Source: a virus | Virus record (IMG/VR): IMGVR_UViG_3300045421_000110 | Location: 1-35,575 of that record | DNA: 35,575 nt | Direction: 5' to 3' (one strand) | Shown here: piece by piece, positions 1 through 35,575 of the stretch | Position numbering within the stretch: position 1 is the stretch's first letter | Layout: each line of letters begins with the position of its first letter | Program-made: the position numbers and the translations under genes | The notes under the pieces: model-generated | What the model was told of the DNA's origin: nothing | Seen by the model: only the letters and a program-made list of their open reading frames with translations | Databases searched by the model: none

Positions 1-127
1 ATCTCGTTCGGCTTCAGCGCCCCCATGTTCCAAAGGGCCTGGTACAGGGCGGCGCGGCTCGCGTCGTCTCCACGCAGGAGGCCGCGCATGTCGAACTTCG
101 CGTAGACGTCCTCCCCGTAGACGTCCT
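1..127. repeat. Terminal direct repeat, copy 1 (identical to 35449-35575)
   Basis: Base-by-base comparison of the first 127 nt with the last 127 nt shows identity. The repeat lies inside the portal coding sequence. Confidence 0.95.
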
Positions 128-6171: not shown

Positions 6172-6524
6172 CAGGACACTCCGATCACGACGTTCCCGGA
6201 CAGGGCCATCCGCGTGTAGCCGGTCGGGTCGACCCACCTCAGCCACCACCGCATGCGCTCACGCGGCGTGCCCTGCGACGGGTTGCCGGCGTCGAAGATC
6301 GACGTCGTCTGTGTCTCGGTCAGGGACACCTTCACCGTGGACGTCGACCCGGTGGTGATCGTCAGCGTGGGCGTCACGACGAGCGACGAGTCCGAGACCT
6401 TGTACACGCCGCTGGTCAGCGTGTACCCGGAGAGGTTCAGTTCGAAGGTCGCCGTGAAGGCGAACTCATCGCCCGAGATCATCTCGAGGTCGAGGACGCC
6501 GGGGCGCTGCTTGAAGACGGCCAC
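6171..6524 (-). CDS. Hypothetical beta-rich protein of the fibre module (117 aa)
   Basis: Ser/Thr/Val-rich sequence, coupled to both flanking genes. It loosely resembles Ig-like baseplate/fibre accessory domains, but that is only an impression. Confidence 0.55.
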
Positions 6525-6525
6525 G

Positions 6526-6711
6526 TCAGAACCCCCTGTACCCAGCCGTCACGCCAACGCCTGCCGTCGTGACGATGGCACGCGCCAGCTGCGGCGAGAC
6601 GCATGACAGGACGATCGAGAAGTCGACGAGCTGCGACACGGCGTGGCCGTACTGCTGCCGCACGAAGTTCAGCTGTCCCGGGCCGAGATCGACGGTCTTG
6701 CTCATGGCCAT
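6526..6711 (-). CDS. Hypothetical small protein (61 aa)
   Basis: Ordinary composition. The stop is 1 nt before the next start. No recognisable motif. Confidence 0.45.
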   Translation of the reverse strand: MAMSKTVDLGPGQLNFVRQQYGHAVSQLVDFSIVLSCVSPQLARAIVTTAGVGVTAGYRGF

Positions 6712-6740
6712 AGCCTATGGCGTCTCGTGCGCCACGGTTT

Positions 6741-7079
6741 TTAGCGGTTGAGCCACTCGCCCTCCGTCCACGCCGCGCGGATCTTCGCCGCCTCCTCGAG
6801 CACCTGCGCTTCGGTCAGGTCCGCGAGATCCGACTCGTCGTCCATCCACCGTCGAGGCTTCCTCCTCGGCCTGGACGGATCGTCTCGCTTCCATCGGCCG
6901 CTGCCGACTCGCGGCAGGGCACCGGCCGCCACGGCCTTCCGGATCTGCCACGAGGTCACGCCGACGAGCTCGGCCACCGCGGCGTGCGTCATGCCTCGAC
7001 CGAGCGCGGCCTTCGCCCGGCGGACCTGCATCGGCGAGAGCGTGCGTCGTCGCGTAATGTCGTCCTCCGTGATACGCAC
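6741..7079 (-). CDS. Helix-turn-helix DNA-binding protein, candidate late-gene regulator
   Basis: HTH-like segment MTHAAVAELVGVTSWQIRKAV. First gene after a repeat-rich gap and directly upstream of the fibre/packaging genes. The start is uncertain: GTG 7079 abuts a GC hairpin at 7080-7099, and ATG 7031 is an alternative. Confidence 0.6.
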   Translation of the reverse strand: MRITEDDITRRRTLSPMQVRRAKAALGRGMTHAAVAELVGVTSWQIRKAVAAGALPRVGSGRWKRDDPSRPRRKPRRWMDDESDLADLTEAQVLEEAAKIRAAWTEGEWLNR

Positions 7080-7102
7080 CCGCCGCGTCCGTGCGGCGGG
7101 AT

Positions 7103-7195
7103 GTTATCCGACAGCCCTCGTTGAAATCCTACGTGAAATCCGTTGGTCGCGGTGCGTTATCGGGCGATCTTGGGGTGTTATGCGGACCCGCATAA
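7103..7195. promoter_or_regulatory. Cluster of short repeats and a perfect palindrome upstream of the HTH gene
   Basis: GTTATCCG (7103-7110), GTTATCGG (7156-7163) and GTTATGCGG (7177-7185). Direct repeat TGAAATCC at 7122-7129 and 7134-7141. Palindrome TTATGCGG-AC-CCGCATAA at 7178-7195. Confidence 0.4.
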
Positions 7196-7205
7196 ATACT
7201 GGTTC

Positions 7206-7799
7206 TCATTTCCGATTCCACCGCGTGCGGTTACCAGCCTCACGCCAAAGCAACTCCACTTCGCGGATCGTCACGTTGCCGTTTCCGTAGTGGCCGCCGT
7301 CATAACCGCCAGTAATGCGATCTGCAAAACTGCCATCGGCATGGCAAAACCCGATTTTCCCCCCAGGCGGCGAACCCCATCGCCCTAACGCAGCATCGCC
7401 CCACCACCACCCAGCAACTGGCTCTTCCTCTCCGACGAACGACTCGACGCTAAGCCAACTGAGGTGCATCTCGCGTAGCCACCCCACGATCGGATGGTCT
7501 TGGTATTCACCAGCCCGCACTGGCCCTCTCGTGCCAACGATCAGCACCTCATTACGGCACCCACTGGCGTCGATCTTGTCCGCCACGTCCTGCGGGAACG
7601 CGTCTACGGGCTTCACCTCAACATAGATGGTCTCCCTGCCATGAATCGCGAAGTCGGGAATCCAGCCGTTGAAGTCCGTCGGCTCGTATGTCCACCCCCA
7701 GCCGAGAAGATCGAACATGGCAGCCCACTTCGCCTCAAGCCGCGAGCGAAAGTTGGCGCCGTTGTACCTCGTTTCGATTGCTGCGATGGTGTAGTTCAT
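7206..7799 (-). CDS. PD-(D/E)XK-like nuclease-fold protein, paralog A
   Basis: Start taken at MNYTIAAIETRY (ATG 7799, GGAGAG RBS); the track start at 7856 lies inside the structured repeat. Core is FRSRLEAKWAAMFDLLGWGWTYEP...GWIPDF...YVEVKP (E...D...ExK order). It shares about 27 of 40 core residues with the 8447-8986 protein. Confidence 0.6.
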   Translation of the reverse strand: MNYTIAAIETRYNGANFRSRLEAKWAAMFDLLGWGWTYEPTDFNGWIPDFAIHGRETIYVEVKPVDAFPQDVADKIDASGCRNEVLIVGTRGPVRAGEYQDHPIVGWLREMHLSWLSVESFVGEEEPVAGWWWGDAALGRWGSPPGGKIGFCHADGSFADRITGGYDGGHYGNGNVTIREVELLWREAGNRTRWNRK

Positions 7800-7823
7800 T
7801 CTCTCTCCAATGCGACGCGACGA

Positions 7824-7866
7824 GAACCACGCGATCGAGCGGACTTCGCCGCTCATCGCATCGTTC
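7824..7866 (-). repeat. Structured intergenic repeat, copy 1 (43 nt)
   Basis: gaaccacgcgatcgagcggacttcgccgctcatcgcatcgttc. About 36 of 43 nt are identical to 10054-10095. On the - strand it folds as a three-segment hairpin 7 nt after the GIY-YIG stop. Confidence 0.7.
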
Positions 7867-7873
7867 GCCTACG

Positions 7874-8404
7874 TCAGTCGTCGATCGCGTGAATGAAATC
7901 CAACAGTTCCGCGATGCACCGGCTCAGATGCCTGCTCGCCCCTTTCCCGGGCGGAAGCCTGCCCCTGATTTGTTCGTCCACCGCCAGAAGCATCCCGCGT
8001 ATCTCTCGTGCCGATGTCGCCAATGCTTGCCGCTTTGGCGATCCAAGAAGGTCGCCTTTCCTTATCCGGCCGACGGGCCGATTCAAGAGATCGCATCCTT
8101 CGTCAGCCCTGTCTCGACACCAAAAACTCTCCTGCTCATTGATCCTCTCAGGCGATATGCCGTCCTCGATCACGCGAAACTCAGGAGCCAGGCCGAGCGA
8201 AGCCAGTTCCGTCTTCCATGAATGAAGCCCGTTGTTGTGCTGAAAGACCGGCTTCGTGGCGGTGTGCGCCTTGCGCCTTTGATCCACATCGAATGTCTGG
8301 CCGACGTACCGACACTTCCCGTCTCGCGGGTCAAGCAGTTCGTACACCACGCCCGAGCATGGGCGAACCAAGCATTGCAGCCGACTTGCGACAACGTCGT
8401 TCAT
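7874..8404 (-). CDS. GIY-YIG nuclease (homing-endonuclease-like)
   Basis: VVYELLDPRDGKCRYVGQT (GIY...YIG), RRKAH, and a downstream NEQESFW Glu. Confidence 0.75.
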   Translation of the reverse strand: MNDVVASRLQCLVRPCSGVVYELLDPRDGKCRYVGQTFDVDQRRKAHTATKPVFQHNNGLHSWKTELASLGLAPEFRVIEDGISPERINEQESFWCRDRADEGCDLLNRPVGRIRKGDLLGSPKRQALATSAREIRGMLLAVDEQIRGRLPPGKGASRHLSRCIAELLDFIHAIDD

Positions 8405-8446
8405 GATGGATGTTCCTCTCGTCGCAAGCGGCTGAATGCAAGCGTT

Positions 8447-8986
8447 CTACCTTCGCCTTGTCGGTTTCCACTGAACCACGTTGCCCGCCTCGGCCCAAAG
8501 GCGATCGACGTTTCCGATAACCCATCTCTCTATAGACTCGTCCCCACCGCCTGCCCCGTGGCCCATGCACCAATACGTCACGCGAGGGCTTATCCCGAAC
8601 GCCGCTGATGCGTGAGCCGGAATGCGGATTTCGTTTCCTTCGCAGTCGTACCTACACCCCCACTCGTAGCGCATGCACTGGTGCCCGCGAAACTGGTCGA
8701 TAGTGAAATACGGCTTCACCTCGACAAGCAGATCGTGATAGCCGTCGCATTCGGAGTGGCCGCAATGAAACCTCACATAGAAGTCGGGCGTCCACCCCAT
8801 CAGGTCAATCGGCTCGTACTGCCATTCCCATCCGGCCAGATCGAAGAACGCCGCCCACCTGGCCTCAAGCCGCGACCGAAACATAGTTCCTTTGTAGAGC
8901 GTCGGGTGCGACTTGATCGCGTAGTCGAAGTGATGCCCGGTAGAACCAAGCGATGAAGCAGACATCTCAGCGGAGTCTTTCGTCAT
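8447..8986 (-). CDS. PD-(D/E)XK-like nuclease-fold protein, paralog B (with a Cys/His-rich insert)
   Basis: FRSRLEARWAAFFDLAGWEWQYEP...GWTPDF...LLVEVKP. The insert HCGHSECDGYH lies between the D and ExK elements. The C-terminal LWAEAGN..W is shared with paralog A. Confidence 0.6.
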   Translation of the reverse strand: MTKDSAEMSASSLGSTGHHFDYAIKSHPTLYKGTMFRSRLEARWAAFFDLAGWEWQYEPIDLMGWTPDFYVRFHCGHSECDGYHDLLVEVKPYFTIDQFRGHQCMRYEWGCRYDCEGNEIRIPAHASAAFGISPRVTYWCMGHGAGGGDESIERWVIGNVDRLWAEAGNVVQWKPTRRR

Positions 8987-9030
8987 GGGAAATCCTTTCT
9001 TCGATGCTGCTTATCGCAAGCGTTCGCTGG

Positions 9031-9261
9031 CTACTTGCGAGCCCTCTTTTTTTTCGCTCGTTTCCAACGCGCGGCTGCCGCAGCATGAGCCTGATCTGCC
9101 GCCCGTGGATTGCCCTGCGGCATGTCCGGTGTCTCTACCCTCAGCAGCCGAGCGAGGCCACGCCGTATCGCCTCGCTCGGTGTGCATCCGTGAGCCTCAC
9201 ACCATTGCGACAGCGGCTCAGCGAGCGGCCCAACGACGAATGTGATGCGAGGCGGGATCAT
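9031..9261 (-). CDS. Ribbon-helix-helix (CopG/Arc-like) DNA-binding protein
   Basis: Start at MIPPRITFVVGPL (ATG 9261 in an ATGA overlap with the upstream stop). The pattern is a beta-strand, then helix L..W....G.T.SEAIRRGLARLL, then a basic tail. Confidence 0.55.
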   Translation of the reverse strand: MIPPRITFVVGPLAEPLSQWCEAHGCTPSEAIRRGLARLLRVETPDMPQGNPRAADQAHAAAAARWKRAKKKRARK

Positions 9262-9818
9262 GCCGGCCCCCACAGTCTCCAGCCCCCGGCGACATGATAG
9301 CTGCCGAGCACAGGACTGCTGGGGTGGCTGTGGACCTCCTCCATGTCGCATACGATCGCGTACCCGGCGGCCTCCAGCGCCGCCGCAAAATCGTCCTCCG
9401 ACATAGATGAGCCGTCGATGTCCAGATCATTTTCGGCGTCGGTATCGGCGCCGTCTATCCACTCCCGCATATCAGCGGCCTCGGCAATCGCTATGGCTGC
9501 GGAGACAGACTCCGCCTCGATGCTGTGGCTGATAGGTCCGTTTGCGTCGCATACGGCGTAGTACTTGGTCATCACTGCCACCTTGCAGGTCGCCGCGTCC
9601 TCCACGTCGCTCGCGGTAGCCTTAGCAGCCAGACTTCGAGCGATCTCCGCCAGCCCAGCGATAGTGTGTCGCGCGTCGGCACACTGATACTGCGTGGGCA
9701 CCCAGCCGCTCCCCTCGCAGTAATCGACCTCGACCGGCGACGAGGCGAGCCGCAGGTCGCACCGCACCGCCATCCGCTCAGCACCGAGACAGCCACCGGT
9801 CAGCGTGATCGTGTCCAT
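9258..9818 (-). CDS. Hypothetical acidic protein (186 aa)
   Basis: First gene after the predicted promoter. In the C-terminal half, 17 of 51 residues are D/E with one basic residue (AEAADMREWIDGADTDAENDLDIDGSSMSEDDF...). No motif recognised. Confidence 0.6.
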   Translation of the reverse strand: MDTITLTGGCLGAERMAVRCDLRLASSPVEVDYCEGSGWVPTQYQCADARHTIAGLAEIARSLAAKATASDVEDAATCKVAVMTKYYAVCDANGPISHSIEAESVSAAIAIAEAADMREWIDGADTDAENDLDIDGSSMSEDDFAAALEAAGYAIVCDMEEVHSHPSSPVLGSYHVAGGWRLWGPA

Positions 9819-9868
9819 GTCATCGTCTCCGAGGATCGCTCGCGAGTCTCATTCGCTCGCATGGCCCC

Positions 9869-9896
9869 ATGATACCAATCATCGGAAGATTGGCAA
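9869..9896 (-). promoter_or_regulatory. Sigma70-like promoter candidate with an embedded inverted repeat
   Basis: Minus strand reads TTGCCA-N16-TATCAT. The inverted repeat CCAATC-N7-GATTGG overlaps the -35 and spacer. It lies 50 nt upstream of ATG 9818, in an AT-rich 235-bp gap. Confidence 0.45.
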
Positions 9897-10053
9897 GTGA
9901 GAATGAAAGATTTTCGGAAATGTGGCGTTTTGCACGGGAAAGATGCTGATTTTCTCCGTCCTGCGGCTACTTGCGCCGTAAAATCTCCTCCCCGGTCATA
10001 TGCCGGATACCTCACTTTGCGTCGCTTTTCTCATACAACTGGGGTGCGCCATC

Positions 10054-10095
10054 GAACCACGCGATGCTGCGGACGAGCCGCTCATCGCATCGTTC
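10054..10095 (-). repeat. Structured intergenic repeat, copy 2 (42 nt)
   Basis: gaaccacgcgatgctgcggacgagccgctcatcgcatcgttc. It lies 4 nt after the methyltransferase stop. The fold is the same as copy 1, and the differences are concentrated in the loop and inner stem. Confidence 0.7.
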
Positions 10096-10099
10096 TCCC

Positions 10100-10867
10100 T
10101 CAGAATAGGACGCCCTGCGACAGCCGCTTGGCCGCTATCTCGCAGTAGCGTTCGTTGACCTCGATTCCGATGCCCCGTTTTTTTTCGCCCCTGGCTGCAA
10201 TCAGTGTCGTTCCGCTGCCCATGAACGGATCGAGTACTATCCCGCCGTCTGGGCAAGATGCCGCGATGCACCTCGCAGCCAGAATCGCCGGAAACGGGCA
10301 CGGGTGCCCCTTCACTTCTCGCTCTGGCATGATCCGCCAGACGGTCATCTTTGTGTTCTGCGAACTGTCCCAATGATGCGGATTCCCGAATCCGTAAATG
10401 TATTCGTGCGAAGGCGAGAACTTTCTGGCGTTTAGCGTGATGCTGCCCCCGCGATCCCAAACGACCTCCGAATAGAAAGGCCAAGGGAAAATCGACAGCG
10501 GATGAATGCCTTGTTTGTCGCGGTATCGCGTCTTGTGATTGATCCAGACGAGCCCCTTCGATAGCCGTCGGCAATGACCGAATACCTCCCGCATCCATTC
10601 CTGGTATTTTGGCTCGTCAAGATCATCCGAGTATCCGTCGTAGCCTTCGTTTTGCTTGCGCTTGTACTCGGCCATCAGTCCCGACGGTTTCGTAGCCGCG
10701 ATGGTGTTGTATGGTGGCGAGGAGAATGTAATGTCGCATTCGGGCAGGTAAGGCAGAATCGCTAGGCAGTCCCCGTGATAGATGGTGATTCCATCCCGTT
10801 CGTAGTACGGAACCAGGCAGGGAGAACCAATCGTTGGAGCAGACCGCTCAGTAACGTCTTCAATCAT
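10100..10867 (-). CDS. DNA methyltransferase, beta-class N6_N4 type, motif IV SPPY
   Basis: Motif IV FSSPPY precedes motif I LDPFMGSGTT. GGAGGA RBS. No adjacent restriction enzyme. Confidence 0.85.
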   Translation of the reverse strand: MIEDVTERSAPTIGSPCLVPYYERDGITIYHGDCLAILPYLPECDITFSSPPYNTIAATKPSGLMAEYKRKQNEGYDGYSDDLDEPKYQEWMREVFGHCRRLSKGLVWINHKTRYRDKQGIHPLSIFPWPFYSEVVWDRGGSITLNARKFSPSHEYIYGFGNPHHWDSSQNTKMTVWRIMPEREVKGHPCPFPAILAARCIAASCPDGGIVLDPFMGSGTTLIAARGEKKRGIGIEVNERYCEIAAKRLSQGVLF

Positions 10868-10917
10868 GGTGAATCCTCCGTGAGCGGCTGCTCATCGGAA
10901 TCGTTCGGTTTCTGTGG

Positions 10918-11358
10918 TCACTTCGTCCGCGTCAAAAGCCCGCGAAGGGTGGCCACACACCGATCGCTGGCTGGCTCTCCGTCCTGCTCGTAGTCCTCAA
11001 TGAGCCGCTGAATCTCGGTTCGCTCCGCGTCAGTGAGCCGCAGCCTCCTCACTTCCCGCACGAGCCGCTCCACGATGTCCGCAGCATCCGGCACGCAGTA
11101 CTCGTCTCCGCACACGCACTTGTCCGGCAGCACTTCGCGAGCCGCAAGGCGAATCGCGTCGTCCATTTCGGCCTCGTCCGCGTTTGCCTGCGTCGCCGCA
11201 CGCCGCAGCCTAGCGATCTCCTCCCGCTGGTCCTTGAGGTCGCCCATCAGGCCAATCTCCTGGACGTGCGACTCGTCGAAAAAAATCTCAATCGTCGATC
11301 GGTCTGGTTTCGGCATTTCAGACCGCTCGCCTGCGTCTTCCATTTTGTCATCGTCCAT
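10918..11358 (-). CDS. Hypothetical acidic protein
   Basis: Start taken at MDDDKMED (ATG 11358, after the RusA stop at 11370); the longer track ORF overlaps rusA. Coiled-coil-like, with no motif recognised. Confidence 0.5.
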   Translation of the reverse strand: MDDDKMEDAGERSEMPKPDRSTIEIFFDESHVQEIGLMGDLKDQREEIARLRRAATQANADEAEMDDAIRLAAREVLPDKCVCGDEYCVPDAADIVERLVREVRRLRLTDAERTEIQRLIEDYEQDGEPASDRCVATLRGLLTRTK

Positions 11359-11369
11359 ATCGAGCCTGC

Positions 11370-11864
11370 TCACGCCACCCTCGCCATCGCCACCCTCCGC
11401 ACGACGACCACCGTCCGCGGCTGCTCTCCCGGCTCGATGTACCGCTTCGCGGTCGTCGACCGCACCACCTGGCGATCGTCCTCCCACACCGCACACGACG
11501 CCGTCACGCTGTCGAGCACCGCCTTCTCGACGTTGTCGACGTCGGCACGAGGGAACGCCGGCACGCTGGACCGCAGCTCGCCGCGGGACGTCATGTGCGA
11601 CTTCGGCCGGCCGAAGACCGCGTCGATCTCCACGACGTGCGGGCCGTCGCTGGTACGCCAGCCGGCCTCGCGGGCCTTCGCCGCCGCAAGGATGGCAATC
11701 GCCCGCCTGTAGGCCCCGATCCCGTTGCGGTCGGGCGTGTAGACGTGGCCCGTCCGCGTCATCCTCGCCCGAGGCTGCGGGACCGGATCGCCCGGCACTA
11801 CGATCGTGATCGAGTCCATGCGGTCACGGTGACCGTTCGGGGGGAGTTTGGCAAGGGACGTCAT
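11370..11864 (-). CDS. rusA: RusA-family Holliday junction resolvase
   Basis: VPGDPVPQPRARM...YTP...Y...PRADVDNVEKAVLDS......WEDDRQV matches the RusA pattern. ATGA overlap with the upstream gene. Confidence 0.8.
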   Translation of the reverse strand: MTSLAKLPPNGHRDRMDSITIVVPGDPVPQPRARMTRTGHVYTPDRNGIGAYRRAIAILAAAKAREAGWRTSDGPHVVEIDAVFGRPKSHMTSRGELRSSVPAFPRADVDNVEKAVLDSVTASCAVWEDDRQVVRSTTAKRYIEPGEQPRTVVVVRRVAMARVA

Positions 11865-13105: not shown

Positions 13106-13672
13106 TCAGCTTCGCGTAACGATCGGCTTTTCAACCGAGAAGCCGAGCGGACAGTTCTCGTTGGCGATCGTGGTATTCGTTTTGTGATGCCGGCGAAATG
13201 GTTGCTCAGTGAGCGTGTCGGGGTGAATGTCAAACCTCACGAGCCGAACAAGCTGCTCAAGAGAGACCTCTTTCTCCACCAAGAATCCATCGCGGCTCAT
13301 GTCAAAGCGACACCACTTTATCCATTCGGAATCCAGCGGTGTCGTTCCGCTCATACGAACAACTGCGACCCCGAAGTTACGCAACGTCTGACCACGCCAC
13401 TTGATCGCCTTCAGTGTCGTTGCCTGCTTTTTGCGGTATGTGTCTCTCTGGCTGTCTGTGAGCGATCCACCGCGAGTCTTTACCTCGAGTTCAATCATCG
13501 ACTGAACTTCTCGCGTTCCGCTTCCGTCAACGACGCTAATGTAGCGATGCACAAACGTGTCGACGTCTGTCTGAACCCACCCGCAATCGCTGGAGAACGA
13601 AGGCAAATCGAGACACGACCGGCACCACGCCATAAAAGGAACATCGGAACCAAAAACCCTATCTCGCGTCAT
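13106..13672 (-). CDS. PD-(D/E)XK superfamily nuclease candidate (VRR-NUC-like pattern)
   Basis: QTDVDTF...MIELEVKTRGGSLTDSQRDTY...G....FGVAVVR gives a D...ExK...Q...G order. AT-richer than the flanks. The ATG overlaps the methyltransferase stop (ATGA). Confidence 0.4.
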   Translation of the reverse strand: MTRDRVFGSDVPFMAWCRSCLDLPSFSSDCGWVQTDVDTFVHRYISVVDGSGTREVQSMIELEVKTRGGSLTDSQRDTYRKKQATTLKAIKWRGQTLRNFGVAVVRMSGTTPLDSEWIKWCRFDMSRDGFLVEKEVSLEQLVRLVRFDIHPDTLTEQPFRRHHKTNTTIANENCPLGFSVEKPIVTRS

Positions 13673-14817
13673 CGGACTGCCTTCGTGATTCGCTCGCTTG
13701 CGCGAGCTAGGTTCGCTTCGTCGATCTCAAACGCAGCCCACTTCCTTCCGAGAGCTATGCACGCCGCTGGAGTTGTTCCACCGCCGCAAAACGGGTCAAC
13801 AACAAACCCATCCGGCTCCGTGAGCAGCTCAATGAAGTAGCGGGCCTCGGCCTCGGACTGCTGCCACTCGTGGTGCGACTTCTCTCTGGTGCCGGTGGCG
13901 ACGTCGTTGACGAACGTCGTCTTGTCTCCGCGTGTCTCCTTCACGAACCAGAGCATCGGCTTCCATCCGTTCACGATTCCGTACTCGTTCATACGGAGCA
14001 GGGTCGGGCCGCTGTGGTAACACGAGCACGTCCACCAGTACCGTAGATGCTTCGACAGGTCTGCGACTGCGTCCGGGAGTTGGATCTGTCCGATGTAAGC
14101 GATCAGGCTTCCGCCTGGACGAAGCACGCGAGAGGCGAACGCACCGAGTCCGTCGAACAACTCGATCGCCTTCCGGTCGTACGGAGGATCTGTGAAGATC
14201 AGGTCAACCGAAGCATCCGGTATCTTGTGGCCGATCTCACGGAAGTCGCCGTGATACAGGCCGTCGACCTTGCGGCGACGTTTCTTCGCCTCCTCCTTCT
14301 CGGCGTCGCGCTTCTTCGCTTGCGACTCCTCGCGAATCTCAGCAACGCACCGCTTGCAAGAGAAGTCCTTCCCGGCCTCTGTCGCGGCCGCGGCCTTGGC
14401 GTCGATCTCCTCCGGCGTCAGCGCCAGCAGCTTCACGCCGGCAGCGGCGATGTCCTTAGATATTCCAAGGTCAGCCAAGGTCGTCTTGGTCGATCTTGAA
14501 TCGCCAAGATCGTCTGATTCGATCTTGCTTCTACTCCCGCCATGTTTCGCCAATACCCCCTCCTCGCGGAGACGTTGGGTCACTTCGCCAACCTTGCGGA
14601 CGGCCTTTGAGTGAGATGCCCCGCACCGGTTTTGCACAGAACGGCTGGCGTCCACTTGCTTGGCAAGCAGGCGACACGCCGCGGCCATGTCGTACGCACG
14701 CAACACCTCGTCCGGCTCAAACGCAGTGGCGATGGCATGCTCAACTTGAGCCTGAGTTCTCTCGATCGACTCTGCCGTCACCTTGGACACTCGATTCCTT
14801 GCCAGAGCCTTACCCAT
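13669..14817 (-). CDS. DNA methyltransferase, beta-class N6_N4 type, motif IV DPPY, with an N-terminal extension of about 200 aa
   Basis: Start at MGKALARNRV (ATG 14817). Motif IV LIFTDPPYD, then motif I VVDPFCGGGTT. The N-terminal domain is unassigned. Confidence 0.85.
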   Translation of the reverse strand: MGKALARNRVSKVTAESIERTQAQVEHAIATAFEPDEVLRAYDMAAACRLLAKQVDASRSVQNRCGASHSKAVRKVGEVTQRLREEGVLAKHGGSRSKIESDDLGDSRSTKTTLADLGISKDIAAAGVKLLALTPEEIDAKAAAATEAGKDFSCKRCVAEIREESQAKKRDAEKEEAKKRRRKVDGLYHGDFREIGHKIPDASVDLIFTDPPYDRKAIELFDGLGAFASRVLRPGGSLIAYIGQIQLPDAVADLSKHLRYWWTCSCYHSGPTLLRMNEYGIVNGWKPMLWFVKETRGDKTTFVNDVATGTREKSHHEWQQSEAEARYFIELLTEPDGFVVDPFCGGGTTPAACIALGRKWAAFEIDEANLARASERITKAVR

Positions 14818-15037
14818 TCCCAGCCTCCTTTTTGGTGTTCTCCCGCCTCTGAATCTCCCGCCGGATGTACCACTCCGCTTTCCGCAGATCCTCGATCGCG
14901 TCACCCTTCAAGCCGGCCCGCCACAGATACTTCACGGCGTTCCCGACGTTGAACGTGAAGTGTTCCGCAATAGTCACACACTCCACGCCGCTCGGGTGAG
15001 CGTTGTAATGTGCCGGGTTGTTGACATTGTCGACCAT
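14810..15037 (-). CDS. DUF3310-family phage protein
   Basis: NPAHYN...ECV.I......F..GNAVKYLWRAGLKG...EDLRKAEWYI. ATG 15037 follows a GGGAGGAAG RBS. Confidence 0.7.
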   Translation of the reverse strand: MVDNVNNPAHYNAHPSGVECVTIAEHFTFNVGNAVKYLWRAGLKGDAIEDLRKAEWYIRREIQRRENTKKEAGNG

Positions 15038-18465: not shown

Positions 18466-18552
18466 AAATAGGCCCCCTCCGTCGCTCGTGCAAGGAACAT
18501 TTGCCCCCCCGCCCCCATGCGTCTATAGGGTGGATTGGTGGCGGAAGGCTGA

Positions 18553-18587
18553 GCCGGTGCGATCCCTTCTTGAGGATTCGCACCGGC
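18553..18587. other. Strong hairpin in the int upstream region
   Basis: GCCGGTGCGA (18553-18562) pairs perfectly with TCGCACCGGC (18578-18587). It extends with ATCC/GGAT and one bulge. A second hairpin CAAGGATG-CAT-CATCCTTG at 18698-18716 lies just before the int RBS. Confidence 0.5.
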
Positions 18588-18731
18588 CCAAGTGGCGGGG
18601 GCAGGAGTCAACCTGCCGCCGACGGCACGACCGCCACAGGCGGCACCGGCGGAGCGGCGCTGCCGGGGAAACCGGACGAACCGGAACCCCTCTCGAGCAA
18701 GGATGCATCATCCTTGGCGGAGGAGGTTCCC

Positions 18732-19607
18732 ATGTTGCTCGACGCGTTTTTGTCTGACGTCTACGTGCCCTTGAAACTCCGCGGCCGATCACCGGAGACG
18801 ACGCGTCTCCTGCGGCACGCGATCCGTTTCTTCTCGCGGTGGCTGGGCAGGCCGGCCGTGCTCGAGGACCTCGACGACCTCGTCGTCGCCCGGTACCTGT
18901 CTGCCAGGGCGGAGACGTTGAAGCCGAACTCCGTCGCCCGCGAGCGGTCTGCGCTCGTCGCGCTGTGGAACATGGCGCAGGCCCGCGGCCTCGTGCGGTG
19001 CCGGCCGTGTGTGGCCCCGGAACTGATCCCCGAGGCCATCCCGCGGGCGTTCACGGTCGACGAGCTGGCCCGACTGTGGGCGGCCTGCGGCGAGGCCCGC
19101 GGGTGGATCGGCCCGATCCCGGCCGGCGTATGGTGCCAGGCATTGTGCGGCACGCTCTTCTACACGGGCGAGCGGATCACGGCCCTCTTGTCGGTGCCGC
19201 CCGACGGCTGGCGGTCCCCGTGGCTGGCGGTGCCGGCGACTTCACGCAAGGGCAGCCGGCGGCCGATGGTGTACGAACTGCCGCCGCACGTGGCGGCACT
19301 CGTCGAAAAGGCCTCGCGTCACGAGGGGCCGGTCCTGCTCTGGTACCCGGCGACGGAGGCCGCGCTCCGCAAACGATGGCACGTGATCACCCGAGCGGCC
19401 GGGCTCGGCGACGGGCCGGACGTCCAGTTTCACGCCCTGCGCCGGTCGTTCGCGTCGCACCTGGACGCCGGTGGCGGCGACGCCCGGCGGTCCCTTGGAC
19501 ACTCGTCAGAGCGGGTGACGCGGCGGTACCTCGACCCACGGATCACCGGCGCCGGCCAGCCGGCAGATTGGACGCGGCTCCCGCGGATATGGCCCGAGGT
19601 CGGCTGA
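18732..19607 (+). CDS. int: Tyrosine recombinase / phage integrase
   Basis: Start at MLLDAFLSDVY (ATG 18732 after GGAGGAGG). C-terminal HALRRSFASHL...LGHSS..VT.RYL. The longer track ORF adds a G/P/R-rich extension. Confidence 0.9.
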   Translation: MLLDAFLSDVYVPLKLRGRSPETTRLLRHAIRFFSRWLGRPAVLEDLDDLVVARYLSARAETLKPNSVARERSALVALWNMAQARGLVRCRPCVAPELIPEAIPRAFTVDELARLWAACGEARGWIGPIPAGVWCQALCGTLFYTGERITALLSVPPDGWRSPWLAVPATSRKGSRRPMVYELPPHVAALVEKASRHEGPVLLWYPATEAALRKRWHVITRAAGLGDGPDVQFHALRRSFASHLDAGGGDARRSLGHSSERVTRRYLDPRITGAGQPADWTRLPRIWPEVG

Positions 19608-35326: not shown

Positions 35327-35575
35327 TGGTTGACCCTCCAGTCGTGATGGCCGGCGTCGCGTTCGTCCCGAGCGGGGCGAATCCCTGCTGCACGTACGTG
35401 AGATCCGCGGCCGGATCGTCGAGGAGGTCCATGTCCTCGAGGTCGCGGATCTCGTTCGGCTTCAGCGCCCCCATGTTCCAAAGGGCCTGGTACAGGGCGG
35501 CGCGGCTCGCGTCGTCTCCACGCAGGAGGCCGCGCATGTCGAACTTCGCGTAGACGTCCTCCCCGTAGACGTCCT
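35316..35575 (-). CDS. Portal protein, C-terminal part (continuation of 1-1130 across the circular junction)
   Basis: ...LLRGDDASRAALYQALWNMGALKPNEIRDLEDMDLLDDP... is the typical portal C-terminus. Same frame as the hand-translated 1-1130 ORF after subtracting 35,448. Confidence 0.85.
   Translation of the reverse strand, partial: DVYGEDVYAKFDMRGLLRGDDASRAALYQALWNMGALKPNEIRDLEDMDLLDDPAADLTYVQQGFAPLGTNATPAITTGGSTNGQ
35449..35575. repeat. Terminal direct repeat, copy 2 (identical to 1-127)
   Basis: Same comparison as copy 1. The sequence diverges immediately outside (35448 is unique sequence). Confidence 0.95.

What the first reader, a model, noticed from the sequence alone, without database searches (positions are those of the whole stretch)
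7824..10095. A 2.2-kb AT-richer cassette bracketed by two copies of a structured repeat and carrying its own promoter
The repeat occurs twice (7824-7866 and 10054-10095), each time 4-7 nt after the stop of a selfish-type gene (GIY-YIG, methyltransferase). On the - strand both copies fold into the same three-segment hairpin: GAAC/GUUC, then GCGAU/AUCGC, then (A)GCGG/CCGC(U).

The outer 12 nt and 18 nt are identical between copies. The differences fall in the loop (CUCGU versus CGAAGU) and the inner stem, and pairing is preserved.

Between the copies lie a sigma70-like promoter and four co-oriented genes: acidic protein, RHH, PD-(D/E)XK-like nuclease and GIY-YIG. This looks like a self-contained moron that could be expressed from a prophage, or a recombination-delimited insertion. 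An RHH regulator with two nucleases would fit a defence or exclusion function, but that is inference only.
Basis: partly seen in the sequence, partly recalled or inferred. Interest (0 to 1): 0.7.

Follow-up and report, generated by a model that had tools for sequence, protein, structure and literature searches.

The report
Conserved hairpin linkers between phage gene cassettes
The two repeats belong to a widespread family of conserved hairpins that sit between genes in a group of uncultured phages, and related genomes swap gene blocks at them, so the 2.2-kb segment is a real swapped-in (or lost) block rather than a self-contained defence unit.

Summary
The hairpin repeat sits at 7824-7866 and 10054-10095, 7 and 4 nt after two stop codons, and none is expected by chance.

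The repeat is not private to this cassette. About 100 IMG/VR viral contigs carry the same element. It lies on the sense strand between a stop codon and the next ribosome-binding site, and some contigs hold arrays of 11 or more copies. The stems covary around fixed (G/U)AAC, a bulged C and UGGUU(C/A).

The window holds three more, 83-nt members. Their loops contain the start codons of the methyltransferase, nucA and GIY-YIG genes.

Near-identical metagenome contigs settle the cassette question. One contig has methyltransferase, a single hairpin, then nucB, which is an empty site. The GIY-YIG, nucB, nucA and promoter/acidic/RHH blocks each occur in other contexts, with homology ending at hairpin 5' edges. 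So the 2.2 kb is a composite of at least three modules that reassort independently in a hyperplastic region.

Exchange at the hairpins is shown. The mechanism (short-homology recombination) and any RNA-level role (translation or stability punctuation) are inferred. No defence function is supported. The closest known analogue is the PeSL elements of T4-type phages, but these hairpins carry no promoter or terminator.

The parts
7824..7866 (-). Short family hairpin c1, between the GIY-YIG stop (7874) and the nucB ribosome-binding site and ATG (7799).
   Evidence: Covariance model R1 scores 54.3 bits. It is the left edge of the nucB block that recurs in 7 foreign contexts.
10054..10095 (-). Short family hairpin c2, 4 nt after the methyltransferase stop. 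Its inner stem has two mismatches (5' GAGCGG, 3' CCGCAG).
   Evidence: R1 scores 56.5 bits. In the empty-site contig L190 one hairpin replaces both c1 and c2.
8365..8447 (-). 83-nt 'type B' family hairpin. Its loop holds the Shine-Dalgarno sequence and ATG (8404) of the GIY-YIG gene. Both stems carry compensatory changes (GCAUU/AAUGC and CAGCCG/CGGCUG).
   Evidence: Arms found. Folds at -39.1 kcal/mol, z -4.4. It travels with GIY-YIG into 5 foreign contexts, with the block starting at 8446.
8943..9025 (-). 83-nt type B family hairpin between the RHH-like ORF stop (9031) and nucA. The nucA ATG (8986) lies in the loop, and the 3' arm encodes SASSLGS.
   Evidence: -30.7 kcal/mol, z -3.3. The nucA block in L189 starts exactly at 9025.
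10824..10906 (-). 83-nt type B family hairpin whose loop holds the Shine-Dalgarno sequence and ATG (10867) of the methyltransferase.
   Evidence: -32.6 kcal/mol, z -3.5.
7202..7205 (-). GAAC directly after the nucB stop codon. It is the only remnant of the hairpin that follows nucB in relatives, and it is the right edge of the nucB block.
   Evidence: L190, L192 and L204 have a full extended hairpin here. L204 has an extra 192-aa gene inserted at this point.
9945..9974 (-). Possible decayed gene end plus 5' arm (GCAAGTAGCCGCAGGACGGAGAAAATCAGC) inside the 235-nt gap.
   Evidence: Resembles the recurrent AAGTAGCCACAGAACGCCAGCGATCAGCGG context of the family. This rests on similarity only.
9869..9896 (-). 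Sigma70-like promoter candidate, TTGCCA-16 nt-TATCAT, with TG before the -10 hexamer.
   Evidence: 10 of 12 positions; count no higher than chance. The -10 is TATAAT in L204 and L206.
9258..9818 (-). Acidic 186-aa protein of unknown function.
   Evidence: No family hit. The exact protein occurs directly after RusA in L204-L208.
9031..9261 (-). 76-aa basic ORF with an RHH-like sequence pattern. Not verified.
   Evidence: Its start overlaps the acidic stop (ATGA), as in L204. No Pfam, NCBIfam or PDB support.
8447..8986 (-). nucA, a paralogue of nucB with a PD-(D/E)XK-like N-terminal domain.
   Evidence: phrog_21138. 42% identical to nucB in alignment A5. The D..E-x-K motif (PDF...VEVKP) is invariant across the family alignment.
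7874..8404 (-). GIY-YIG-type endonuclease gene, probably a free-standing homing endonuclease.
   Evidence: The exact protein occurs in at least 4 different upstream and 4 different downstream contexts.
   Evidence: The exact protein occurs in about 5 upstream and 4 downstream contexts.
10100..10867 (-). N6/N4 DNA methyltransferase, the upstream neighbour. It too is preceded by a family hairpin.
   Evidence: PF01555, E 3e-34.

Best explanation
The two repeats are members of a large family of conserved intercistronic hairpins. Short forms are about 43-47 nt and extended forms about 83-88 nt. They punctuate the accessory-gene region of a clade of uncultured, high-GC, temperate siphovirus-like phages.

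Anatomy. Each hairpin starts at or within a few nt of the upstream stop codon. Its order is (G/U)AAC, an internal loop, a 5-bp stem, a 6-bp stem, an apical loop, then the return arms with one bulged C, ending in UGGUU(C/A). Either it is followed by the next gene's ribosome-binding site, or the apical loop itself holds that site and the start codon.

Shown:
- The hairpins are the places where homology between related genomes begins and ends.
- The 2.2-kb segment is a presence/absence polymorphism bounded by them.
- Its components reassort independently as 'hairpin + gene' cassettes.

Inferred:
- Exchange happens by short-homology recombination between hairpin copies. The phage's own Sak4-type annealing protein and RusA could serve this. 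The palindromic structure may raise the frequency of breaks or template switching.
- The conserved geometry is kept because the transcribed hairpin has an RNA-level job at cistron junctions. Candidate jobs are coupling or insulating translation initiation, protecting mRNA ends, or a processing site.

The segment is therefore a composite of a promoter/acidic/RHH module, a nucA cassette and a mobile GIY-YIG endonuclease cassette. It is not a single moron.
For: Family and position:
- Exact-pattern scans found the element in 10 and then 95 IMG/VR stretches.
- Model R1 gives 223 hits in 100 loci, with arrays such as 11 or more copies in 5 kb of L088.
- Flanking genes are unrelated or only about 40% identical, while the hairpin is 85-100% identical.
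- In 125 of 157 distinct contexts an upstream ORF ends within -9 to +3 nt of GAAC. In 53 it abuts exactly.

Structure:
- 10 of 15 pairs show compensatory changes across 65 cells; 0 of 500 shuffles reach this.
- The window's three extended hairpins fold as predicted, with z from -3.3 to -4.4.

Exchange at hairpins:
- L190 joins window 10526-10054 to 7869-7202 through one 46-nt hairpin.
- The GIY block 8446->7851-7862 occurs in 5 foreign contexts.
- The nucB block 7866/7867->7202 occurs in 7.
- The nucA block starts at 9025.
- The promoter block runs 10062->9107 and sits after RusA in L204-L208.
- Between IMG/VR loci, 15% of internal ends of long alignments fall on hairpin arms, against 1.3% of random positions.
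- L155 and L107 differ by a 316-nt cassette, with a 44-nt overlap that is the hairpin.
- Mixed-allele hairpins exist: c2, and 6 of 52 sequences at pair 18-35.

Recombination genes in the window: Sak4-like and RusA.
Against: - No direct evidence shows the hairpin forms or acts in RNA. The strand asymmetry is weak: 6 G.U against 2 A.C cells.
- Primary sequence is far more conserved than structure alone would require. That hints at a sequence-specific partner I did not find.
- Block ends cluster at the 5' edge (GAAC) rather than being spread along the hairpin. A site-specific process would also give this pattern.
- In IMG/VR pairs, only 1 of the 31 listed indels (about a dozen distinct events) had all three junctions at a detected hairpin arm.
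- The covariation set was selected for pairing, so its percent-paired figure is circular.
- L190 is only 1.5 kb. The missing genes could lie elsewhere in that genome.
- The host is unknown.
Confidence: 0.6

Rival explanations
1. First reader's view. The 2.2 kb is one self-contained moron with its own promoter, expressed from the prophage, whose RHH regulator and two nucleases provide defence or superinfection exclusion.
For: - A plausible sigma70-like promoter lies in a 235-nt gap at the head of four co-oriented genes.
- The segment is absent from one related contig.
- The phage encodes a tyrosine integrase, so a prophage state is likely.
- Two nuclease folds are supported, though only by weak structural matches.
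Against: - The only PADLOC hit is a weak one (E 0.0065) of the GIY domain to PD-T4-3.
- The parts occur separately in other arrangements.
- The promoter+acidic+RHH module lies right after RusA in relatives and is followed by the rest of the operon.
- Nothing resembling a terminator closes the unit.
- nucB, a paralogue of nucA, lies outside the unit.
- The GC dip is not bounded by the repeats.
Confidence: 0.12
2. The hairpins are sites of a dedicated structure-specific recombination system, comparable to integron attC sites or IS200/IS605 ends. Cassettes would be cut and joined at the base of the folded single strand next to GAAC/GTTC.
For: - Cassette edges fall at or within about 5 nt of GAAC in every case examined (8446, 7866/7867, 7202-7205, 9025).
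- At 7202-7205 only GAAC is shared between the joined sequences.
- The architecture resembles attC: an AAC/GTT-containing lower stem, an unpaired spacer, an upper stem with an extrahelical base, and a variable apex of 5-45 nt.
- Stop codons are embedded in the AAC box, as in many integron cassettes (the integron comparison is from my own knowledge).
Against: - The only tyrosine recombinase is Xer-like. The integron-integrase model scores 12 bits against a cut-off of 265.
- No HUH/Y1 transposase or RAYT was seen among the genes screened: about 30 of the window's ORFs and the precomputed Pfam calls on the locus genes.
- The flanks of AAC/GTT do not fit RYYYAAC/GTTRRRY.
- Mixed-allele hairpins argue for crossovers inside the element.
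- Edge clustering can also arise because different hairpin subtypes share little beyond the first nucleotides.
Confidence: 0.12
3. The hairpins are ordinary factor-independent terminators or attenuators, and their repetition is incidental.
For: They are GC-rich hairpins immediately after stop codons, on the sense strand.
Against: - No U-tract follows; the flank is UCUGUG, UCUCAC or UCGUCG.
- The terminator scan did not pick them up.
- Arrays place one between every small gene, with only 15-30 nt to the next start and no room for promoters.
- In extended forms the loop holds the next gene's start codon.
- Sequence-level conservation across unrelated flanks is not expected of terminators.
Confidence: 0.08
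4. The polymorphism is driven mainly by the GIY-YIG gene acting as a free-standing homing endonuclease. It would cut near, or in, the conserved hairpin sequence, and repair would copy the endonuclease gene and its neighbours into new genomes.
For: - A GIY-YIG fold is the top structural match, though weak.
- The identical 176-aa protein occurs in at least 4 upstream and 4 downstream contexts at 99.7-100% DNA identity.
- Its start is buried in a -39 kcal/mol hairpin. This fits the tight translational control known for T4 homing endonucleases (my own knowledge).
Against: - nucB, nucA and the promoter module move just as freely without the endonuclease.
- Most hairpin-bearing contigs showed no relative of this protein: tblastn against L001-L010 and against L167-L184 found none.
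- Block edges are sharp rather than graded, unlike co-conversion tracts.
Confidence: 0.08

Closest known systems
PeSLs (promoter-early stem-loops) of T4-type phages (Arbiol et al. 2010, PMC2839356; Comeau et al. 2014, PMC4122927)
   Same: Both are short, repeated, structured intergenic motifs concentrated in hyperplastic regions of small accessory genes. Both run from the upstream stop codon to the downstream Shine-Dalgarno sequence and start codon. In both, insertions, deletions and replacements between close relatives are bounded by the motifs (searches compared).
   Different: - PeSLs are defined by a strong sigma70-like promoter plus a stem-loop that terminates transcription. Here no promoter fits into the element and no terminator features are present.
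- The hairpin here has a fixed geometry with covarying stems and invariant GAAC, bulged C and UGGUUC.
- Some copies enclose the next gene's start codon.
- The phages are small temperate siphovirus-like genomes of about 66% GC, not T4-like myoviruses.
Integron attC sites
   Same: Both are imperfect palindromes that separate promoterless gene cassettes in arrays. Both have a lower stem containing AAC/GTT, an unpaired spacer, an upper stem with an extrahelical base and a variable apex. Stop codons often lie in the AAC box, and cassette edges fall at the AAC/GTT box (the attC description is from my own knowledge).
   Different: - There is no IntI, attI or Pc.
- The consensus flanks are not met.
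- The element is shorter (43-88 nt) and far more conserved in sequence than attC sites.
- The hairpin travels with the gene downstream of it on the sense strand.
Conserved 'boundary' or linker sequences at gene junctions of lambdoid phages (Susskind and Botstein's modular theory; Clark et al. 2001 on HK620; cited from memory, not read here)
   Same: Both are short conserved sequences at gene boundaries that give otherwise unrelated modules a place to recombine.
   Different: Those are not structured hairpins with covariation, do not form arrays and do not enclose start codons.
REP elements of bacterial chromosomes (own knowledge)
   Same: Both are imperfect palindromes of about 35-45 nt, conserved in sequence, placed between cistrons after stop codons and co-transcribed.
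   Different: REPs occur in hundreds of copies in the host chromosome and are spread by RAYT transposases. A scan of 185,579 species genomes found only two true copies of this element, one per contig. No RAYT was seen.
RNase III processing hairpins between genes of phage T7 (own knowledge)
   Same: Both are repeated sense-strand hairpins at cistron junctions, with a lower stem, an asymmetric internal loop and an upper stem spanning about two helical turns.
   Different: Cleavage here is untested. The stems are shorter, and sequence conservation across distant phages is much higher than in the T7 group.

Membership tests
PeSL (T4-type promoter-early stem-loop) | A sigma70-like early promoter is part of each repeated motif. 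| tested here: not met
   Only one promoter-like site was found in 6500-11500, and it lies 160 nt from c2 rather than in the repeat. In arrays only 15-30 nt separate the hairpin from the next start codon.
PeSL (T4-type promoter-early stem-loop) | The stem-loop acts as a transcription terminator or attenuator. | not testable with these tools
   No U-tract follows, and the terminator scan did not report the hairpins. Function needs an experiment.
PeSL (T4-type promoter-early stem-loop) | Many near-identical copies lie in hyperplastic regions, upstream of small ORFs of unknown function. | tested here: met
PeSL (T4-type promoter-early stem-loop) | Insertions, deletions and replacements between close relatives are bounded by the motif. 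| tested here: met
Integron attC / gene cassette | An IntI-type integrase with attI and Pc next to the array. | tested here: not met
   The integrase at 18501-19607 is Xer-like. TIGR02249 scores 12.4 bits against a cut-off of 265. It lies 8 kb away on the other strand.
Integron attC / gene cassette | R''/R' boxes with the sequences RYYYAAC and GTTRRRY. | tested here: not met
   Only AAC and GTT match. The flanks are GAG/CAU before AAC and CUG/CUC after GUU.
Integron attC / gene cassette | A folded single strand with an unpaired central spacer, an extrahelical base and a variable terminal structure. | tested here: met
   There is an internal loop of 4-5 by 3 nt, a conserved bulged C, and an apex of 5 to about 45 nt.
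Intrinsic (factor-independent) terminator | A GC-rich hairpin followed by a U-rich tract. | tested here: not met
REP / RAYT system | High copy number in the host chromosome and an associated RAYT gene. | tested here: not met
   The genome scan gave 65 chance hits inside coding sequence and only 2 true single copies, L047 and L056. The pattern was strict, so diverged copies would be missed.
IS200/IS605-type element | A Y1 HUH transposase (TnpA) within or near the element. | tested here: not met
   No such domain among the roughly 30 window ORFs scanned, nor in the precomputed Pfam lists of neighbouring genes. Many small ORFs remain unclassified.
Moron (Hendrix-type extra transcription unit) | An extra gene or genes between two genes that are adjacent in related phages. 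| tested here: met
   L190 has methyltransferase, hairpin, nucB.
Moron (Hendrix-type extra transcription unit) | Its own promoter and terminator, making an autonomous unit. | tested here: inconclusive
   A promoter candidate is present. No terminator is present. The components are not inherited as one unit.
Free-standing GIY-YIG homing endonuclease | A GIY-YIG catalytic domain with the conserved Y..Y.G, R, H/Y, E and N residues. | tested here: met
   Y21, Y33-V-G35, R43, H47, E92 and N108 are invariant in 12 homologues. The best Foldseek match is a GIY-YIG endonuclease (probability 1.0, but E 7e-3 and TM 0.37). The sequence-only hits are weak.
Free-standing GIY-YIG homing endonuclease | Sporadic distribution: the same gene inserted between different genes in close relatives. 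| tested here: met
Free-standing GIY-YIG homing endonuclease | Cleaves the allele that lacks the gene, giving biased inheritance. | not testable with these tools
   Needs enzyme assays or mixed infections.

The most novel reading that the evidence does not exclude
The hairpins are the recombination sites of a phage-borne, integron-like cassette system. 'Hairpin + gene' units would be excised and inserted at the GAAC/GTTC base of the folded strand by a dedicated structure-specific enzyme, either phage or host, that has not yet been identified. The phages would then carry a shared, standardised pool of exchangeable accessory genes whose expression signals, including start codons held in the hairpin loop, travel with each cassette.
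Probability: 0.12. Interest if true: 0.9.

Novelty: new variant of a known kind. Interest (0 to 1): 0.66.

Why it matters
Phage genomes are mosaics, but the places and signals where modules are exchanged are rarely visible. Here a single 43-88-nt structured element marks the joints of accessory-gene cassettes in about 100 uncultured phage contigs. Near-identical contigs from different metagenome samples catch the same genes (a methyltransferase neighbour, two PD-(D/E)XK-like nucleases and a GIY-YIG endonuclease) in several arrangements, cut at these joints.

This extends the PeSL idea beyond T4-like phages to a promoter-less hairpin with covarying stems and fixed nucleotides. That combination points to a specific molecular partner.

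It also gives a practical handle. The covariance model can be used to find hyperplastic regions and cassette boundaries in metagenomic phages, and to ask whether exchange is plain short-homology recombination or a dedicated mechanism.

The variants that hold a start codon in the loop additionally offer a testable case of a portable translation-control module.

Tried and rejected
- Isolated phages. Megablast and blastn of 6500-11500 found no relative. The only hits were distant methyltransferase matches to Gordonia phages. TerL is at most 34% identical to any isolate, so no annotated relative could be used.
- Rfam. Nothing at gathering scores for the whole window. Only sub-threshold noise appeared at E up to 5 in 7100-11000.
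- Bacterial and archaeal genomes. 65 of the 67 hits to the pattern were chance matches inside coding sequences without the 5' arm. Only L047 (a Pirellulales MAG) and L056 (a Cyanobium sp. culture contig) are real. This rejects a host REP-like origin, but the host remains unknown.
- Defence. PADLOC gave only a weak GIY-domain hit.
- Integron idea. The integrase is not IntI-like.
- RHH. No support from Pfam, NCBIfam or PDB. The strong-looking TALE hits are an artefact of one 15-residue stretch summed over repeats, and no single stretch passes.
- Clean 'cassette present or absent between two hairpins' events among IMG/VR loci. Only one was found, L155 against L107. Most indels there did not lie at hairpins that my 3'-arm pattern detects.
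- Strand test. 6 G.U against 2 A.C cells is too few to decide between RNA and DNA.
- A trans-acting partner. Clustering ORFs around hairpins gave only one ubiquitous family: small proteins of unknown function in 88 of about 101 loci, with no Pfam or PHROG match. No obvious RNA-binding protein or recombinase emerged.
- c2 as a recombinant. I considered it a proven recombinant of two hairpin alleles. The mismatch pattern fits, but the promoter module's own hairpin in L204 has the same 5' start, so this stays an inference.

Full report
**What the window is**

The first and last 127 nt are identical. The window is therefore a complete 35.4-kb genome, assembled as Logan contig SRR35386001_9529.

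Nearly all genes lie on the - strand:
- terminase, portal, protease, capsid and tape measure;
- a Sak4-like annealing protein, a replication initiator, RusA and two N6/N4 methyltransferases.

One Xer-like tyrosine integrase lies on the + strand. So this is a temperate siphovirus-like phage of 65.8% GC. Its large terminase is at most 34% identical to that of any isolated phage.

The repeat occurs exactly twice, at 7824-7866 and 10054-10095, with none expected by chance. The first 12 and last 18 nt are identical. The copies begin 7 and 4 nt after the stops of ORF 7874-8404 and of the methyltransferase.

Both fold into the three-part hairpin, and more stably as - strand RNA. Copy 2 keeps only 4 of its 6 inner pairs.

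The gene calls are mostly sound.
- The GIY-YIG call is weak by sequence. All catalytic residues are conserved in 12 homologues. An AF2 model (pLDDT 89) has a GIY-YIG endonuclease as its best match, although that match is itself weak (E 7e-3, TM 0.37, none at E <= 0.001).
- nucA (8447-8986) and nucB (7206-7799) are paralogues. Their N-terminal domain best matches the Bax1 nuclease domain (E 3.6e-3), with weaker matches to VRR-NUC and Hjc. All are PD-(D/E)XK folds.
- The RHH call could not be verified.

The GC dip covers 7206-10867, not just the segment between the repeats. A single promoter-like site in 5 kb is no more than chance by count. It is, however, well placed, and it reads TATAAT in relatives.

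**The repeat is a family, not a pair**

Exact-pattern scans found the element in 10 and then 95 stretches of IMG/VR contigs. In bacterial and archaeal genomes, 65 of 67 hits were chance matches inside genes. Only two were real and single.

A covariance model built from 52 distinct copies finds 223 hits in 100 loci. L088 has at least 11 copies in 5 kb, one between every small ORF.

Flanking genes differ, or are about 40% identical, while the hairpin is 85-100% identical. The element always lies on the sense strand. In 125 of 157 distinct contexts an upstream ORF ends within -9 to +3 nt of GAAC, and in 53 it abuts exactly. Stop codons are often built into the first stem (UGA|GAAC, cAUAAC). The next start codon usually follows 15-30 nt later.

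**Structure**

Besides the 43-47-nt form there are forms of 79-88 nt.
- Type A has a non-coding extension of the apex.
- Type B has the Shine-Dalgarno sequence and start codon of the next gene in the loop. The 3' arm is then coding, and it is read in different frames in different genes. It is therefore the nucleotide sequence that is conserved, not a peptide.

Across 52 distinct arm pairs, 10 of 15 base pairs show compensatory changes. Examples are GCGAU/AUCGC to GCAUU/AAUGC, CCGUU/AACGG and CGCAU/AUGCG, and CAGCGG/CCGCUG to GAGCGG/CCGCUC, CAGCCG/CGGCUG and CACCUG/CAGGUG. Meanwhile (G/U)AAC, a bulged C and UGGUU(C/A) stay fixed.

That set was chosen for pairing, so only the diversity of pair types counts as evidence, not the percentage paired. 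The sequence-selected set shows less covariation: 3 pairs and 13 cells.

**The window has five members**

The arms search and folding show three type B hairpins in addition to c1 and c2:

| Coordinates | Gene start in loop | z-score |
|---|---|---|
| 10824-10906 | methyltransferase, 10867 | -3.5 |
| 8943-9025 | nucA, 8986 | -3.3 |
| 8365-8447 | GIY-YIG, 8404 | -4.4 |

The GIY-YIG hairpin has doubly compensated stems.

After the nucB stop only GAAC remains (7202-7205). Relatives have full hairpins there. A probable decayed gene end plus 5' arm lies at 9945-9974.

So every junction from the methyltransferase to nucB carries a hairpin or a trace of one.

**The cassette question**

I looked up the exact proteins in public assemblies. 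The look-ups returned the window's own arrangement from other samples (L186, L194, L207). They also returned the same genes in other arrangements, at 97-100% DNA identity.

- L190 is an empty site. Window 10526-10054 and 7869-7202 are joined through one 46-nt hairpin, and that hairpin has its own SNPs.
- The block 'c1 + nucB + UGAGAAC' (7866/7867 to 7202) occurs in 7 foreign contigs, with about 5 different upstream and 4 different downstream neighbours.
- The block 'type B hairpin + GIY-YIG' (8446 to 7851-7862) occurs in 5 foreign contexts.
- The nucA block in L189 starts at 9025.
- The promoter+acidic+RHH block (10062 to 9107) follows RusA directly in L204-L208, behind a collapsed hairpin.
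- L204 has an extra hairpin plus a 192-aa gene inserted exactly at the GAAC after nucB.
- In the more distant L168, the slot between nucA and nucB holds a different small gene between two hairpins.

Misassembly is unlikely. The identical stretches shared by hairpins (19 nt or less at the 5' side here) are far shorter than assembler k-mers. Several arrangements also recur in independent samples.

Among IMG/VR loci, 15% of internal ends of long alignments fall on hairpin arms, against 1.3% of random positions. One clean cassette indel overlaps by exactly one hairpin. Most other indels in that set are not at hairpins my pattern detects.

**Interpretation**

Shown: the hairpins are the joints at which 'hairpin + gene' cassettes are exchanged.

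Inferred mechanism: short-homology recombination between hairpin copies. Supporting points:
- The phage encodes a Sak4-type annealing protein and RusA.
- c1, c2 and the L190 hairpin share an identical 19-nt 5' arm.
- Mixed-allele hairpins exist (c2; 6 of 52 at pair 18-35).

The clustering of block edges at GAAC, with one junction sharing only GAAC, leaves room for a site-specific process. No integron-type integrase, HUH transposase or RAYT was found.

An RNA-level role is also inferred. It rests on the sense orientation, the tight contact with stop codons, the start codons held in loops of about 40 nt, and the conserved geometry. A ribosome terminating at the abutting stop would open the lower stems, so translational coupling or insulation is attractive. 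mRNA-end protection or RNase III-type processing are equally possible. The strand test is too weak to decide.

The hairpins lack U-tracts and cannot each be followed by a promoter. They are therefore neither classical terminators nor PeSL-type promoter-terminator cassettes.

No cassette protein matches a defence family convincingly. The GIY-YIG gene behaves like a free-standing homing endonuclease. It may add to the mobility, but the other modules move without it.

**Comparison and novelty**

The nearest described system is the PeSLs of T4-type phages (PMC2839356, PMC4122927). The shared features are repeated structured motifs from stop codon to start codon in hyperplastic regions, with indels bounded by them.

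The element here differs in five ways:
- it has no promoter;
- it is a single fixed-geometry hairpin with covarying stems and invariant nucleotides;
- it sometimes encloses the next start codon;
- it occurs in small, high-GC temperate phages;
- it is conserved across about 100 contigs whose genes have diverged.

It resembles integron attC sites in shape but fails their sequence and integrase criteria. Four full-text literature searches found no description of it.

I rate it a new variant of a known kind, with moderately high interest.

Noticed in passing
window 1-127 and 35449-35575: There is an exact 127-nt terminal duplication, so the window is a complete, circularly closed assembly of a 35,448-bp phage genome.
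   Followed up: partly
window 10824-10906, 8943-9025, 8365-8447: The start codons of the methyltransferase, nucA and GIY-YIG genes each sit in the loop of an 83-nt hairpin, and the 3' arm is coding (SAPTIGS, SASSLGS, SRLQCLV). In other loci the same arm is read in another frame, so the constraint is on the nucleotides.
   Followed up: yes
window 10918-11247; L088 and 88 of about 101 hairpin loci: A multi-copy family of small proteins (about 70-150 aa) has a '(P)TLTDEER.AI' motif, often ends in 'LRGLLERTK*', and is usually flanked by the hairpins. No Pfam or PHROG match was found, only a weak sub-threshold hit to PSD5/DUF1595. Function is unknown.
   Followed up: partly
window 7206-7799 and 8447-8986: Two paralogous PD-(D/E)XK-fold proteins (phrog_21138, 494 database homologues, none annotated) lie 650 nt apart. 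Their N-terminal domain best resembles the Bax1 nuclease domain, with weaker VRR-NUC and Hjc matches. The nucB protein is found with the identical sequence in at least 7 other contigs.
   Followed up: partly
window 18501-19607 (+): This is the only clearly + strand gene. It is a divergent Xer-like tyrosine recombinase that barely passes the Pfam cut-offs, which suggests a temperate lifestyle. No attP was looked for.
   Followed up: no
window 9869-9896 (-) and L204/L206: The promoter candidate has TATCAT in the window and a perfect TATAAT in relatives. Its spacer holds an inverted repeat, CCAATC...GATTGG, which could be an operator, perhaps for the RHH-like protein encoded downstream.
   Followed up: no
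L204 960-990: This is a collapsed hairpin. The 5' arm start is fused to the 3' arm end (CATAACGATGCGAT|GCGTGGTTC), with the 21-nt apex deleted, as expected from slippage across a palindrome.
   Followed up: no
L195 and L197 (contigs carrying the identical GIY-YIG gene): In other contexts the GIY-YIG cassette abuts opposite-strand genes with HicA-toxin, Imm70 and YxiG_2 domains. That is a toxin/immunity-rich region of another element.
   Followed up: no
L047 (Pirellulales MAG JBBAVS010000024.1) and L056 (Cyanobium sp. FGCU52 contig, coverage 200): These are the only true copies of the hairpin among 185,579 species genomes. They may hint at the host (planctomycete or picocyanobacterium), or they may be binning or co-culture carry-over. 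One nucB homologue is labelled Prochloraceae cyanobacterium.
   Followed up: no
window 13669-14904 and 10100-10867: One 35-kb phage carries two N6/N4 DNA methyltransferases. Relatives carry further variants (241 and 243 aa) in the same hyperplastic region, so methyltransferases are themselves shuffled cassettes.
   Followed up: partly
window 7150-7200 (-): A small perfect hairpin, UUAUGCGG-GUC-CGCAUAA, lies just after the GAAC remnant downstream of nucB. It is unrelated to the family and is conserved in L204.
   Followed up: no
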